Made by a program: the position numbers
Source of the DNA: Escherichia coli
GTDB lineage: Bacteria > Pseudomonadota > Gammaproteobacteria > Enterobacterales > Enterobacteriaceae
DNA: 64,000 nt
Reading direction: 5' to 3' (one strand)
NCBI RefSeq assembly: GCF_017348835.2
Contig: NZ_CP071375.1
Shown: positions 6,001 through 9,000 of the stretch, piece after piece
Layout: every line of letters starts with the position of its first letter
How positions within the stretch are numbered: the first letter of the stretch is position 1

Positions 6001-9000
6001 AATAAGCAATTTCTCCTCATAGTCGTCTTCGCTATCGCCATCAGGCACATCGTTTTTACTTCTCCTCAGATACGATATGTAAAAATCGCGCCAGGCATCC
6101 AGATCCAGTTGCCCTCGCTTATTCGATATCGGGGCACCCGGCAATTTCTGCAATCTGCGAAGCTGGCGATCGGTCAGACTTAAATGCCTGGCAACTTCAG
6201 TCTGCGTAGCCACTCCTCACCTCGCAAAAACTCTCACCTCACAATCACAACAAAACCGGTCATGTCCGGTTTACATGTCTGTTTTTTGTTCATGTCCGGT
6301 TCACAGAAGACCTGTTTTTATATTTTTCATATAGTTAACTTGAAGAGAAACCGGACATGGATCCCGGAAAATTTTCATAAATAGCGAAAACCCGCGAGGT
6401 CGCCGCCCCGTAACCTGTCGGATCGCCGGAAAGGACCCACGAAAATGATAATAATTATCATCTACATGAGGTTTATCACGACATGTGTGTACGCCATCAA
6501 ACCACGAGAAATAATCAATTATTACGCAGGTATCGTATTAATTGATCTGCATCAAATTAGCGTAAAAGCAACTTCAGATAATACAAATCAGCAACACTGA
6601 ATACGGGGCAACATTATGTCATCAAAGAACAGAACCCGCAGAACAACAACCCGCAACATCCGATTTCCAAACCAGATAATTGAACAAATTAACATCGCTC
6701 TTGACCTGAAAGGTTCAGGTAATTTTTCAGCGTGGGTTATTGAAGCCTGCAGAAGAAGATTAATTAATGAAAAATATTCTCAATTTGTACCCAACAAAGA
6801 CAAACACGACCAGAGCACCTGTTCAGACAGGTTTACTTAAACGACTTATATATGACACAAAAAGCGACCACTAAAGTCGCTTTTTCTTATGGTAACAGGC
6901 AATAACTCTCTCAGATATTTTTTAGCATTTTTTTGACCGCGCGTTTCCGGACGTATTCTGTTCTCCTGTCCCTTTATATCGTCGGAATACCCGCCGCTCT
7001 TCAAATCCCATTCCCAACTCAGAATGTAGTCTGTTGACCGCTTGTTTTATTTCGGTCAGGTTCACCGGTGAAACCGGAGTCCGGCGCGCCTTACGCAAAC
7101 ACTCTGCTCGTTTCTGTGCCGCCACTTTTCTTTTCTGGTCATCACTTAGCTGTACCATCACTTTTGCCCATCGTTCAGCTGCTCTCCGGTACAGTCCTTT
7201 TTTCTCCAGACATTCTGCCACGTGATCATGTAGCATAAGTGACCTCCGATTATCTACAGACTGCCATCCTGAATTTACCTTCCCTTAATGAAATAACAAT
7301 AAAAAACAAACCACGCAAAAACAATAAAATAACACACAAAAAAAACTAAATAATAAACAAAAATAATCACCTTATTTTATTATTTTTTGAGGGGGCAATT
7401 ACTGAACAAAAAACGCTGACTATATACTCAAAACCAAACAACTATTCTGCCAATCAGGTATCATGGCAACACACGGAATTACCGTGTTTTTGCCTTCTCT
7501 GCCCATACAATACGGGCATATACTTCATACTCTATTGTAATATTTCTATCCATGCGCCCCACTCCATTTACCTGTAAATAATATTCAAAATATTTATCAC
7601 AGAAATCGTTTTTGGCCATGAACTGAGCACACTATAAAGTCCGGAACTGACTCTTTGTTAAATTACCTTAACGTTACCAGTAACACCTTCATAACAAAAC
7701 ATCACGGTATACACTGGGTACGGATATATTCCTGTGCTCCTTCCAGTTGCTTCTGCATTGCCATCAGCCGTTCTCTGAGGATGAAATAATCCCGTTCAGC
7801 GGCTTCTGCCAGTCGGGGACCGGTTGCATTATCCACGCCGGAGGTGATGGGGGCTTTACGCAAGGAGCCTGGACAGTTGGCGTTGATGCGCAGGCGCTTA
7901 CGACCAGCGGCAACATCAGCACGCAGAGTTTCATTTTCAGCTCTCGCATCGGCTAATTCCCTCGAGTATCTGGCATCAAGTGCAGCGACATCACGCTGGC
8001 GTACCTGCATATCAGTAATTGTCGCGTTCGCCAGCTCCAGCTCACTGGCTTTTTTATCGCGCTGCTCTTTGTAGATGATGGCGTGATCACGGTAATGATT
8101 CAGCCCCAGACTAAGCGCACCACAGGCCACCAGCAGGACAATGATAACCACGCACAGAACACGGTTCATATCACCACCAACGGATTGCCCAGACCAGAAC
8201 AGCAATGGCCACAATACGAATGGCAAAAGCTGCCGCTCTTGTTAAATCCAGACTGGCTGGCGTCTCCACTTCAATGCCTTTCATAATGGACAACCTCAGA
8301 AAGAATCTTTTATACTTCCTCACAGGGAAAGTACCTCCCTACCCATAATTTCTCCCTTGCCTTACTCAAGGTCAGAAAACACAAAACCCCGCTTGCTGCC
8401 AACAAACGGGGTTTTTACTTTTATTCACTTAGGTTTTACCAGTTTTCAGGATTTCGTGTTATCCACCCGCGTTGGCCAACGTCATTTTTCAGGAAAATAT
8501 TCTGCTATCTGTCGATGTCCCAGCACGCCAGCGCGCTCTCCTGGTCACGCCGTGAGACCTGACCGTAGCAATTATTTGAACGGATACGGCAGTCTCTGCC
8601 ACCGTCCTTAATCCACCAGCGAATCGCCTCACAGGCACCTTTTCGATCGCCTGCATTAATTCGTTTATAAAACGTCGACGGGAAGCACTTACCGGGGCCA
8701 ATGTTGTACGGACAGAATGACGCGATCCCCGCTTTCTGGGGTTCGGTCAGCGGCACCCGGATGTTTTTCTCCACCCATGCCAGCGCCTTGTCACGTTCGA
8801 TGGCATTAACCCGGTCGCATTTTTCCTTTGACAGCTTCATGCCAGGAATAACAGGCTTACCATCCACCAGAATGGCACCACGGCAGATGGTCCAGATCCC
8901 CGCACCATCACGGTATGCCGTGGTGTGGTTACCTTCCTTTTCATCCAGAAACTGGTCGAGGATTTCAGGCGCAGAAGCACCTGCACCAATCAGCGCCAGA

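What the first reader, a model, noticed from the sequence alone, without database searches (positions are those of the whole stretch)
6213..6420. cos site with lambda-identical cohesive-end 12-mer
The exact 12-nt lambda cosN sequence lies about 185 bp upstream of Nu1, which defines the packaged genome ends and shows that the head and lysis modules in this window belong to the same prophage in a circularly permuted integrated order.
Basis: partly seen in the sequence, partly recalled or inferred. Interest (0 to 1): 0.3.

Follow-up and report, generated by a model that had tools for sequence, protein, structure and literature searches.

The report
Lambda-type cos site, non-lambda cosB
This is a genuine but ordinary DNA-packaging (cos) site of a lambda-like E. 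coli prophage; its cutting site is identical to lambda's, but its terminase-docking repeats and the DNA-binding end of its small terminase differ from those of lambda, 21 and N15.

Summary
GGGCGGCGACCT occurs exactly once in the window, at 6397-6408 on the minus strand, 183 bp before the GTG start of the small terminase gene (TerS, 5704-6213, minus).

It is part of a full lambda-type cos. The first 45 bp of the left end are 45/45 identical to lambda.

From bp 46 on, similarity to lambda cosB is at shuffle level. Lambda's R elements are absent. In their place are copies of CATGTCCGGTT:
- R3, direct, bp 50-60
- R2, inverted, bp 108-118
- an extra inverted copy, bp 138-148
- R1, direct, 10 of 11, bp 145-155
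- an IHF-like site at bp 72-84

The architecture therefore matches lambda and 21, but the sequence differs. TerS matches Nu1 only from about residue 49 on. Its N-terminal domain is a diverged winged helix-turn-helix.

Two distant relatives keep R3 and R2 at the same coordinates, one with a concerted G-to-T change.

The module is in 1154 of 5426 complete E. coli genomes.

Lysis genes, cos and head genes lie in one contiguous prophage integrated at tRNA-Ser.

Verdict: a real, ordinary cos, probably an undescribed fourth lambda-like packaging specificity.

The parts
6432..6438 (-). cosQ (GGGTCCT), the packaging-termination subsite, at -30..-24 relative to the first base of the cohesive end
   Evidence: Same heptamer and same offset as in lambda. 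Invariant in 42 distinct cos variants from 81 related loci. Also present in the distant relatives L089 and L091.
6395..6410 (-). cosN: the 12-nt cohesive-end sequence GGGCGGCGACCT (6397-6408) plus 2 flanking bp on each side (CGGGGCGGCGACCTCG)
   Evidence: Exact and unique in the window, with 0 of 100 shuffles matching. Ten of the 16 bp are rotationally symmetric, as described for lambda cosN in PMC9026076. Identical to lambda and 21.
6360..6394 (-). cosN-to-cosB spacer (left-end bp 15-49), including the lambda I2 segment (bp 30-42, TATGAAAATTTTC, window 6367-6379)
   Evidence: Bp 1-45 are 45/45 identical to lambda. The IHF-consensus scan finds the same 7/9 match at bp 30-42 in lambda, 21 and the window.
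6349..6359 (-). R3-equivalent: CATGTCCGGTT, direct orientation, left-end bp 50-60; proposed primary TerS binding site
   Evidence: Sits at the position annotated as R3 (bp 50-65) in phages 21 and 434. No variation across the 42 variants. Kept at bp 50-60 in L089 (GATGTCCGGTT) and L091 (CATTTCCGGTT).
6325..6337 (-). Candidate IHF site I1: TAACTATATGAAA, left-end bp 72-84, inside a 75% A+T spacer
   Evidence: Matches 7 of 9 specified positions of WATCAANNNNTTR, on the same strand as the I1 of lambda (7/9, bp 74-86) and 21 (8/9). The common natural variant at bp 76 falls in the NNNN part of the consensus. This is a consensus match only; binding was not tested.
6291..6301 (+). R2-equivalent: CATGTCCGGTT read on the plus strand, so inverted relative to R3; left-end bp 108-118
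   Evidence: Exact inverted copy of R3 with 47 nt between the arms. Position matches the annotated R2 of 21 (bp 107-122) and 434 (bp 108-123). Kept inverted at bp 108-118 in L089 and L091.
6261..6271 (+). Extra inverted copy of CATGTCCGGTT (left-end bp 138-148), overlapping R1 through a shared CATG and forming a near-palindrome AAACCGGaCATGaCCGGTTT
   Evidence: It has no counterpart in the annotated cosB of 21 or 434. One natural variant (v19) has a 32-bp deletion fusing this copy with R2.
6254..6264 (-). R1-equivalent: CATGACCGGTT (10 of 11), direct orientation, left-end bp 145-155
   Evidence: Position is comparable to R1 of 21 (bp 150-166) and 434 (bp 151-166). L091 has a direct CACTTCCGGTT at bp 141-151.
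5704..6213 (-). Small terminase subunit (TerS, 169 aa, GTG start): a diverged winged-HTH DNA-binding domain (about aa 1-55) followed by a Nu1-like oligomerisation and TerL-binding part
3804..5732 (-). Large terminase subunit (gpA-like; ATPase and endonuclease domains), overlapping the 3' end of TerS by 29 nt
   Evidence: Pfam GpA_ATPase 3e-56 and GpA_nuclease 5e-71. PGAP annotates a 1929-nt gene in near-identical genomes.
7702..9932 (-). Lysis cassette upstream of cos on the same strand: Rz-type spanin (7702-8226), lysozyme (8505-9038) and P21-type holin (9726-9932)
   Evidence: Pfam Phage_lysis 3.5e-46, Phage_lysozyme 7.6e-24 and Phage_holin_2_1 1.3e-32. Same order in annotated genomes.

Best explanation
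Window 6254-6438 (minus strand) is the cos site of a lambdoid E. coli prophage.

Proposed mechanism, by analogy with lambda:
1. TerS dimers bind the CATGTCCGGTT repeats of cosB through the recognition helix of an N-terminal winged helix-turn-helix (residues 15-22, DRQLRRLQ, followed by K23).
2. IHF bends the A+T-rich spacer between R3 and the inverted R2, so that one TerS dimer can dock on both.
3. This anchors TerL over cosN, 37 bp away.
4. TerL makes staggered nicks that leave the 12-nt 5' end GGGCGGCGACCT. Packaging then proceeds into TerS, TerL and the head genes.
5. The next cosQ-cosN on the concatemer terminates packaging.

cosQ, cosN and the spacer up to bp 45 are lambda-identical. cosB and the TerS DNA-binding domain are a matched pair that differs from those of lambda, 21 and N15. 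The predicted packaging specificity is therefore different, while the cohesive ends are the same.

What is shown and what is inferred:
- Shown: the sequence anatomy, its conservation, the concerted R3/R2 change in one distant relative, and the protein fold.
- Inferred: that TerS and IHF actually bind, that cleavage occurs at the lambda positions, and that specificity is distinct.
For: - The 12-mer is unique and exact. The 16-bp nick site has 10 symmetric bp, and cosQ sits at -30..-24 exactly as in lambda. Bp 1-45 are 45/45 identical to lambda.
- All four matches to CATGTCCGGTT with at most one mismatch in 64 kb fall within 6254-6359. Only 1 of 100 shuffles reached 4 matches anywhere.
- The repeat positions and orientations are bp 50-60 direct, 108-118 inverted and 145-155 direct. 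They mirror the annotated R3, R2 and R1 of phage 21 (50-65, 107-122 inverted, 150-166) and 434.
- An IHF-like 7/9 match lies at bp 72-84, on the same strand as lambda I1.
- In 42 distinct natural variants, cosQ and the R3 core are invariant and cosN changes in one variant only. R cores carry about 1 variant row per column, against 3.8 outside the sites.
- Two distant relatives keep R3 and R2 at identical coordinates:
  - L089 (TerS about 60% identical, same recognition helix) has GATGTCCGGTT and an inverted CATGTCCGGTT.
  - L091 (TerS about 51-56% identical, helix RQLRNLQK) has CATTTCCGGTT in both R3 and inverted R2, plus a direct CACTTCCGGTT at bp 141-151. Its cosN is completely different.
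- The TerS C-terminal part is Nu1-like. The N-terminal domain is predicted with high confidence to be a winged HTH and superposes on solved TerS DNA-binding domains at 1.8-2.3 A.
- TerL with gpA ATPase and nuclease domains follows.
- The same TerS (99.4% identical) and cosB (93.6% DNA identity) occur in the PhiR12 phage genome records, whose listed hosts are E. coli K-12 and E. coli C. The PhiR phages belong to a panel of plaque-forming lambda-related temperate phages (PMC13190303).
Against: - No experiment was done. Virion ends, TerS binding and IHF binding are all inferred.
- The conservation footprint is weak statistically: Fisher p is about 0.1 on variable columns, and the sequences are closely related and not independent.
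- The IHF match is only 7/9, and such matches are common in A+T-rich DNA.
- R1 is imperfect, and it is unclear which of the two overlapping copies at bp 138-155 is used.
- This particular prophage has an IS3-family element between the Q/esterase region and the holin. Late-gene expression, and so use of this cos copy, may be impaired.
Confidence: 0.85

Rival explanations
1. It is a lambda-specificity cos. Under this reading the cosB contains diverged lambda R3/I1/R2/R1 elements recognised by a Nu1-type protein.
For: cosQ, cosN and bp 1-45 are identical to lambda. The TerS C-terminal two-thirds are 46% identical to Nu1. The architecture is the same.
Against: - Bp 46-190 are no more similar to lambda than shuffled sequence (z = 1.3).
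- No CGTTTCCNTTCT-type element is found within 2 mismatches.
- The TerS N-terminus does not match the Nu1 Pfam profile or lambda Nu1.
- The recognition helix is RQLRRLQK against lambda's RTIQNWQE.
- Lambda and 21 also share cosQ and cosN yet discriminate more than 1000-fold (PMC4669245).
Confidence: 0.03
2. It is a phage-21-specificity cos. Under this reading the repeats are variants of the 21 R sequence (CATGTCGG.CCTT) recognised by a gp1-like protein.
For: The window repeat and the 21 R sequences both begin with CATGTC. Alignment of cosB bp 46-190 with phage 21 is slightly above shuffled sequence (z = 2.7). The holin is of the P21 type.
Against: - No 21-type R is found within 2 mismatches.
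- After CATGTC the sequences differ (CGGTT against GG.CCTT), and the register relative to cosN differs by about 3 bp.
- TerS is only 40% identical to gp1, and only over the C-terminal part.
- Phage 21 gp1 groups with lambda Nu1, not with this protein, in the N-terminal alignment.
Confidence: 0.05
3. The site is structurally intact, but this copy is a silent relic. The prophage is defective, so the cos is never cut, except possibly by a co-resident prophage of the same specificity.
For: - An IS3-family element (10331-11544) lies between the Q-proximal region and the holin. It could be polar on the late operon that includes the terminase genes.
- Genomes carry up to 4 copies of this module, so cross-packaging by a sibling prophage is conceivable.
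Against: - All cos subsites match the commonest variant (v0, 11 loci) exactly.
- TerS, TerL, W, portal and integrase reading frames are intact in the window.
- This explanation concerns activity, not identity. It is compatible with the main explanation.
Confidence: 0.3
4. The CATGTCCGGTT repeats are not terminase sites. Instead they are RNA or DNA hairpins, such as transcription terminators or regulatory stems, in the leader of the terminase operon.
For: The consensus scan flags two terminator-like hairpins on the minus strand, at 6272-6253 and 6367-6351. Both are built from these repeats.
Against: - R3 and R2 are separated by 47 nt and keep fixed distances from cosN even in L091, where cosN itself and the flanks have diverged.
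- The flagged stems are short (5-7 pairs) with poor T tails.
- Positions and orientations copy the experimentally defined lambda and 21 cosB layout.
- The repeat changes in concert in R3 and R2 in L091, whose TerS recognition helix also differs.
Confidence: 0.04
5. It is the cos of a phage-inducible chromosomal island (PICI) that hijacks a helper terminase through an Rpp protein.
Against: The gene after cos encodes a full TerS with the Nu1-like TerL-binding part. It is followed by TerL, W, portal, protease, capsid and tail genes. A PICI lacks these. The RppC hit reflects the DNA-binding fold shared by Rpp and TerS.
Confidence: 0.01

Closest known systems
Phage lambda cos (cosQ-cosN-cosB with R3-I1-R2-R1; gpNu1/gpA terminase)
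   Same: - cosQ heptamer and offset are identical.
- The cosN 12-mer and its 16-bp nick site are identical.
- Bp 1-45, including I2, are identical.
- R3 starts at bp 50, R2 is inverted about 58 bp downstream, and R1 is direct near bp 150.
- An IHF-like site lies in an A+T-rich spacer.
- The TerS start is at bp 196 against 191 in lambda.
- TerS and TerL overlap.
- The C-terminal two-thirds of TerS are 46% identical to Nu1.

   Different: - The R sequence is CATGTCCGGTT instead of CGTTTCC(G/T)TTCT.
- cosB similarity is at shuffle level.
- The TerS DNA-binding domain is not detectably similar by sequence. It has a different recognition helix and a wing shorter by about 5 residues.
- There is an extra inverted repeat copy overlapping R1.
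- A PerC-family gene and a DUF3950 gene replace bor and the neighbouring ORFs between Rz and cos.
Phage 21 cos (OL657228; gp1/gp2 terminase), the classical second packaging specificity
   Same: Same cosQ and cosN. Same tripartite architecture at nearly the same coordinates. The R sequences also begin CATGTC. The holin is of the P21 type.
   Different: - The 21 R is (C/T)ATGTCGG.CCTT, or CGTGTCGGTACTT for R3, and none occurs here within 2 mismatches.
- gp1 has a Nu1-like N-terminus ([23 protein letters not shown]) unlike this TerS.
- Lambda and 21 cosB are more alike (z = 6.5) than either is to this one (z = 1.3 and 2.7).
Phage N15 / Monarch cos (third documented specificity)
   Same: A lambda-like cohesive end and cosQ, with TerS and TerL directly downstream. 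The relative L089 even carries the N15-type cohesive end GGGCGGCGTCCG.
   Different: N15 has a single R3 (GAGGTTGTTGTT, bp 48-59; PMC4669245), no IHF site, and a TerS start at bp 89. Its TerS N-terminus is unrelated. The window has the complex, multi-repeat type of cosB with a different repeat sequence.
Escherichia phages PhiR12_1 to PhiR12_5 (PV340549-PV340554) and the same module in E. coli prophages, including O157:H7
   Same: TerS is 99.4% identical and cos plus cosB are 93.6% identical in DNA, with all repeat copies preserved. The module is present in 1154 of 5426 complete E. coli genomes.
   Different: In those records the cos subsites are not annotated. A small 'hypothetical protein' is called across cosB on the opposite strand. 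The region upstream of cosQ differs, showing mosaicism.

Membership tests
Lambda-like cos site (cosQ-cosN-cosB) | 12-nt cohesive-end sequence with strong identity to lambda's | tested here: met
   12 of 12 identical, unique in the window, 0 of 100 shuffles.
Lambda-like cos site (cosQ-cosN-cosB) | 16-bp nick region with partial two-fold symmetry and conserved CG flanks | tested here: met
   CGGGGCGGCGACCTCG has 10 of 16 symmetric positions, as stated for lambda in PMC9026076.
Lambda-like cos site (cosQ-cosN-cosB) | cosQ heptamer GGGTCCT about 30 bp upstream of the nick | tested here: met
   At -30..-24, the same offset as lambda. Invariant in 42 variants.
Lambda-like cos site (cosQ-cosN-cosB) | Complex cosB: three repeated TerS sites, with R2 inverted relative to R3 and R1, and R3 about 50 bp from the end | tested here: met
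   Direct copy at bp 50-60, inverted at 108-118, direct (10 of 11) at 145-155, plus one extra inverted copy at 138-148. The layout is compared with the annotated sites of 21 and 434.
Lambda-like cos site (cosQ-cosN-cosB) | IHF binding site (I1) between R3 and R2 | tested here: inconclusive
   A 7/9 match to WATCAANNNNTTR at bp 72-84, on the same strand and within 2 bp of lambda's I1, which is also 7/9. This is a consensus match only.
Lambda-like cos site (cosQ-cosN-cosB) | Terminase genes (TerS then gpA-type TerL) immediately downstream | tested here: met
   Pfam Phage_Nu1, GpA_ATPase and GpA_nuclease.
Lambda-like cos site (cosQ-cosN-cosB) | Staggered cleavage producing 12-nt 5' cohesive ends in virion DNA | not testable with these tools
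   Needs end sequencing of packaged DNA.
Lambda packaging specificity (cosB-lambda / gpNu1) | R sequences of the type CGTTTCC(G/T)TTCT | tested here: not met
   None within 2 mismatches. Alignment of bp 46-190 gives z = 1.3 against shuffles.
Lambda packaging specificity (cosB-lambda / gpNu1) | gpNu1-type DNA-binding domain with recognition helix IRTIQNWQE | tested here: not met
   No BLASTP or Pfam match for residues 1 to about 48. The aligned helix reads DRQLRRLQK.
Phage 21 packaging specificity (cosB-21 / gp1) | R sequences of the type CATGTCGG.CCTT or CGTGTCGGTACTT, and a gp1 DNA-binding domain | tested here: not met
   No 21-type R within 2 mismatches. gp1 matches only residues 64-166.
N15 packaging specificity (simple cosB) | A single R3 (GAGGTTGTTGTT), no I1, R2 or R1, and TerS start near bp 89 | tested here: not met
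   Multi-repeat cosB with TerS start at bp 196. The repeat is different and the N15 TerS N-terminus is unrelated.
Nu1-family small terminase (winged-HTH DNA-binding domain plus TerL-binding C-terminus) | N-terminal winged helix-turn-helix fold | tested here: met
Nu1-family small terminase (winged-HTH DNA-binding domain plus TerL-binding C-terminus) | Nu1-like central and C-terminal region | tested here: met
   Pfam PF07471 at 1e-18 over aa 49-150. Residues 73-164 are 46% identical to lambda Nu1.
PICI cos with Rpp | cos followed by an rpp gene in an island lacking terminase and morphogenetic genes | tested here: not met
   A full TerS, TerL, portal, capsid and tail gene set follows.

The most novel reading that the evidence does not exclude
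The CATGTCCGGTT cosB and its 'MATQTEVA...' TerS DNA-binding domain form a fourth lambda-like packaging specificity that has not been experimentally characterised. It would be mutually exclusive with the lambda, 21 and N15 terminases despite identical cosQ, cosN and cohesive ends. It is also among the commonest packaging modules in E. coli prophages, present in about 21% of complete genomes, including O157:H7 strains. The overlapping inverted and direct copies at bp 138-155 may give a nucleoprotein architecture that differs from lambda's R1.
Probability: 0.55. Interest if true: 0.3.

Novelty: new member of a known kind. Interest (0 to 1): 0.17.

Why it matters
As a cos site this is textbook biology, and it mainly helps to annotate the prophage. 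It fixes the virion genome ends at 6397-6408, and it confirms that the lysis and head modules flank cos in one prophage.

The modest added value concerns packaging specificity. The literature held here documents only three specificities among lambda-like phages: lambda, 21 and N15 (PMC4669245). This very widespread E. coli module has the lambda cutting and termination signals but a different TerS and cosB recognition pair.

If the specificity is distinct, it determines which co-resident prophages, hybrid phages or satellites can be cross-packaged in poly-lysogenic strains such as O157:H7. It also offers a natural third or fourth data point on how recognition helix and R site co-evolve. In L091 both the repeat (G to T) and the recognition helix (R to N) differ from the window's.

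Tried and rejected
- Initial guess that the repeats were the phage 21 R sequences. I rejected this after reading the annotated phage 21 record.
- Papers that define the critical lambda and 21 contacts (Sippy 2015, PMC5006951; Feiss 2010, PMC2815929). They are not held, so the base-specific contact data could not be compared.
- Word-indexed protein search with the TerS N-terminus. It returned almost only fragments of the same protein. The exhaustive HMMER search was needed to find 47 representative clusters.
- PDB sequence search. It gave no relevant hit.
- Phylogenetic footprint in 81 IMG/VR loci. It is suggestive but not significant on a column count (p about 0.1), partly because one deletion variant inflates R2 variability and the loci are near-identical.
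- Terminator/promoter scan. It flags hairpins made of the repeats, but I judged this a by-product of the inverted repeats.
- Literature search for a prior description of this cosB type. Nothing was found in the held library. This is absence in that library only.
- L093, a more distant TerS of the same N-terminal family. It has a short cos region with CCGTTTCCGTTTCCG upstream and does not fit a simple correlation between helix and repeat. I did not pursue it.
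Full report
**1. Observation**

The lambda cohesive-end 12-mer GGGCGGCGACCT occurs exactly once in the window, at 6397-6408 on the minus strand. 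None of 100 dinucleotide-preserving shuffles contains it (for the search allowing one mismatch).

The genes around it run on the minus strand:

| Gene | Window coordinates | Evidence |
|---|---|---|
| Holin | 9726-9932 | Pfam Phage_holin_2_1 |
| Lysozyme | 8505-9038 | Pfam Phage_lysozyme |
| Rz | 7702-8226 | Pfam Phage_lysis |
| PerC-family gene | 6922-7236 | Pfam PerC |
| DUF3950 (YlcI/YnfO) gene, plus strand | 6616-6840 | Pfam DUF3950 |
| 12-mer | 6397-6408 | |
| Small terminase (TerS), GTG start | 5704-6213 | Pfam Phage_Nu1 |
| gpA-type large terminase (TerL) | 3804-5732 | Pfam GpA_ATPase, GpA_nuclease |
| W homologue | 3614-3820 | PGAP 'phage head-tail joining protein' in near-identical genomes |
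| Portal | 2025-3617 | PGAP 'phage portal protein' in near-identical genomes |

Counting from the first G of the 12-mer as bp 1, the TerS start codon is at bp 196. It is at bp 191 in lambda and bp 189 in phage 21.

**2. The parts shared with lambda**

A megablast of window 6620-6100 (minus strand) against 50,697 phage records found no record covering 80% of the query.
- Lambda-like phages match only 6620-6364, at about 89%.
- The PhiR12 phages match 6460-6100, at 93.6%.

The region is therefore mosaic, and the junction falls inside cos.

Alignment with the lambda cos junction, the annotated phage 21 genome (OL657228) and 434 shows the following:
- cosQ GGGTCCT lies at -30..-24 (window 6432-6438), the same offset as in lambda.
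- The 16-bp nick region CGGGGCGGCGACCTCG has 10 symmetric positions. This is the number given for lambda cosN by Murialdo and Feiss (PMC9026076).
- Left-end bp 1-45, including the I2 segment, are 45/45 identical to lambda.

**3. cosB is not lambda's**

From bp 46 to 190, a global alignment with lambda scores no better than shuffled sequence.

| Comparison, bp 46-190 | z against shuffles |
|---|---|
| Window vs lambda | 1.3 |
| Window vs phage 21 | 2.7 |
| Lambda vs phage 21 | 6.5 |

No lambda-type R (CGTTTCCNTTCT) or 21-type R (CATGTCGG.CCTT) occurs within 2 mismatches. Instead the interval contains copies of CATGTCCGGTT. All four matches with at most one mismatch in the 64-kb window lie within 6254-6359.

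| Copy | Sequence | Orientation | Left-end bp | Window |
|---|---|---|---|---|
| R3-equivalent | exact | direct | 50-60 | 6349-6359 |
| R2-equivalent | exact | inverted | 108-118 | 6291-6301 |
| Extra copy | exact | inverted | 138-148 | 6261-6271 |
| R1-equivalent | CATGACCGGTT (10 of 11) | direct | 145-155 | 6254-6264 |

The annotated sites of phage 21 are R3 at 50-65, I1 at 74-86, R2 at 107-122 (inverted) and R1 at 150-166. Those of 434 are within one base of these. The layout is therefore the classical R3-I1-R2-R1 with a different repeat. The extra inverted copy overlaps R1 through a shared CATG, giving the near-palindrome AAACCGGaCATGaCCGGTTT.

The 40-bp spacer after R3 is 75% A+T, as in phage 21, compared with 72% in lambda. 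It contains TAACTATATGAAA at bp 72-84. This matches 7 of the 9 specified positions of the IHF consensus, on the same strand as lambda I1 (also 7/9, at bp 74-86). It is a consensus match only.

**4. The matching protein**

TerS (169 aa) hits Pfam Phage_Nu1 only over residues 49-150, which correspond to profile positions 62-163.
- BLASTP aligns residues 73-164 to lambda Nu1 at 46% identity.
- BLASTP aligns residues 64-166 to 21 gp1 at 40% identity.
- Nothing aligns for the N-terminus, and the PDB sequence search is empty.

An exhaustive HMMER search with residues 1-81 found 47 representative clusters, mostly proteins of 150-190 aa that begin MATQxEVAxHL.

In a MAFFT alignment with lambda Nu1 and 21 gp1, the N-termini align with a shorter wing (about 5 residues fewer). 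The recognition-helix positions read as follows:

| Phage | Recognition helix |
|---|---|
| Lambda | RTIQNWQE |
| Phage 21 | RTIERWQS |
| This TerS | RQLRRLQK |

Foldseek found the same domains, but not significantly. The domain is thus a diverged winged HTH of the TerS type. This is supported by fold comparison, not proven.

**5. Comparative evidence that the repeats are functional**

Eighty-one loci with the same TerS (99% identical) give 42 distinct cos sequences.
- cosQ and the R3 core never vary.
- cosN varies in one variant.
- R cores carry about 1 variant row per column, against 3.8 elsewhere.
- A column-level Fisher test is not significant (p about 0.1), and the loci are closely related.

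Two distant relatives, found through the HMMER hits, are more telling.
- L089 has a TerS about 60% identical, with the same recognition helix. It has cosQ, an N15-type cohesive end (GGGCGGCGTCCG), GATGTCCGGTT at bp 50-60 and an inverted CATGTCCGGTT at bp 108-118.
- L091 has a TerS about 51-56% identical, with helix RQLRNLQK. It has cosQ and a quite different 12-mer at the cosN position. It nevertheless has CATTTCCGGTT at bp 50-60, the same sequence inverted at bp 108-118, and a direct CACTTCCGGTT at bp 141-151.

Coordinates and orientation are thus identical, with a concerted G-to-T change in both copies. L091's recognition helix also differs from the window's. This is the pattern expected of protein-binding sites measured from the nick.

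The cos regions of lambda, 21 and Gifsy-1 contain no copy of the repeat within 2 mismatches. N15 has a single 2-mismatch match, at bp 258 inside gene 1 and outside its cos region.

**6. Mechanism**

This is inferred from the lambda paradigm summarised in PMC9026076 and PMC4669245.
1. [quoted passage not shown]
2. This positions TerL on cosN, 37 bp away. That distance is critical in lambda and is conserved here and in L089 and L091.
3. TerL nicks both strands 12 bp apart. Packaging runs towards the terminase and head genes.
4. cosQ, cosN and I2 of the next cos terminate packaging.

Termination in lambda and 21 does not depend on cosB specificity, whereas initiation does. A cos with lambda cosQ, cosN and I2 but a different cosB is therefore expected to share cohesive ends and termination signals with lambda while being initiated only by its own TerS.

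The 2015 paper states that only three specificities (lambda, 21, N15) had been documented among characterised lambda-like phages. I found no description of this one in the held library.

**7. Context and the 'same prophage' claim**

The whole window is 99.98% identical to, and collinear with, E. coli strain PE164. On the minus strand the annotation runs as follows:
- exonuclease and integrase side, dicB, dicA/dicC immunity region
- RusA, Q, tRNAs, SASA esterase
- an IS3-family element
- holin, lysozyme, Rz, PerC
- cos
- TerS, TerL, W, portal, protease, decoration protein, major capsid
- tail genes, J

The integrase ORF is intact in the window (28851-29876) and abuts tRNA-Ser at 29929-30018. 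Lysis and head modules therefore belong to one contiguous lambdoid prophage in the usual integrated permutation. It is this synteny, rather than the 12-mer, that shows it.

**8. Prevalence**

- The exact TerS sequence is recorded on at least 1000 contigs.
- The cosB plus TerS-N-terminus segment is present at 80% coverage or more in 1154 of 5426 complete E. coli genomes, with up to 4 copies per genome. These include O157:H7 strains.
- It also occurs in the PhiR12 phage genome records, whose listed hosts are E. coli K-12 and E. coli C. The PhiR phages belong to a panel of plaque-forming lambda-related temperate phages. The module therefore presumably works in viable phages; this is an inference.

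**9. Verdict**

This is a real and ordinary cos site.
- It is wrong in expecting lambda's cosB elements, and incomplete in leaving out cosQ.

The only non-trivial point is that cosB and the TerS DNA-binding domain form a distinct, very common recognition pair that appears not to have been characterised experimentally. It is a new member of a well-known kind.

Noticed in passing
window 10331-11544 (ORFs); about 10329-11542 by PGAP in the PE164 record: An IS3-family element with a programmed frameshift sits between the SASA-family esterase gene and the holin. It therefore lies inside the late operon, between Q and the lysis, cos and terminase genes. It is absent at this place in strain 2013C-4991. 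It could be polar on late transcription and make this prophage defective. Two more copies of an IS3-family transposase lie at about 43815-45028 and about 56295-57508. The copy at 56295-57508 has the same protein accession as the late-operon copy and interrupts yeeO.
   Followed up: partly
window 6616-6840 (+) and 6922-7236 (-): Between Rz and cos, where lambda carries bor and two small ORFs, this prophage carries a YlcI/YnfO DUF3950 gene and a PerC-family transcriptional activator gene (Pfam 3.8e-44). PerC homologues in prophages can regulate LEE virulence genes (from my own knowledge).
   Followed up: partly
IMG/VR locus variant v19 (one of L008-L087), left-end bp about 110-141: One natural variant has a 32-bp deletion whose end points lie in the two inverted CATGTCCGGTT copies (R2 and the extra copy), fusing them. 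This looks like unequal crossing-over between repeats, the route proposed in PMC4669245 for deriving the simple N15 cosB from a Monarch-like one.
   Followed up: no
L091 (Logan SRR5386419 contig) and L089 (Logan DRR526073 contig): L091 keeps cosQ, the I2-like segment and R3/R2 at lambda spacing, but at the cosN position it has GTCCCCGTACGC, unrelated to lambda's 12-mer. L089 combines the window-type cosB with an N15-type cohesive end (GGGCGGCGTCCG). cosN and cosB therefore assort independently in this group.
   Followed up: partly
L093 (GCA_054051265.1, JBPAOE010000011.1), about 110 bp upstream of TerS: A TerS of the same N-terminal family (38% identical overall) has a short cos region. It has cosQ and a tandem CCGTTTCCGTTTCCG just before the gene. 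This resembles the lambda R core rather than CATGTCCGGTT, so it is an exception to a simple correspondence between helix and repeat.
   Followed up: no
window 14624-14873 (-): Three prophage-borne tRNA genes lie downstream of Q: Arg-TCT, Arg-TCG, and a CAT-anticodon tRNA. ARAGORN calls the last one Met, while PGAP calls it Ile (probably tRNA-Ile2 after lysidine modification).
   Followed up: no
window about 31000-50000: A second mobile region starts beyond mtfA at tRNA-Asn (31010-31085). It carries a tyrosine integrase, an IS66 element, a PemK/MazF toxin-antitoxin pair, a LA2681-family HEPN protein next to a 946-aa hypothetical protein, and a disrupted Ig-like adhesin gene. It is a possible defence island.
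   Followed up: no
PhiR12_1 record PV340549.1, 24792-24914 (L003 4077-4199, minus): The deposited annotation calls a 40-aa 'hypothetical protein' across cosB on the opposite strand, and cos is not annotated. In the window the mechanical ORF 6184-6384 (+) likewise spans cosB. Both are probably spurious calls over the repeat region.
   Followed up: no
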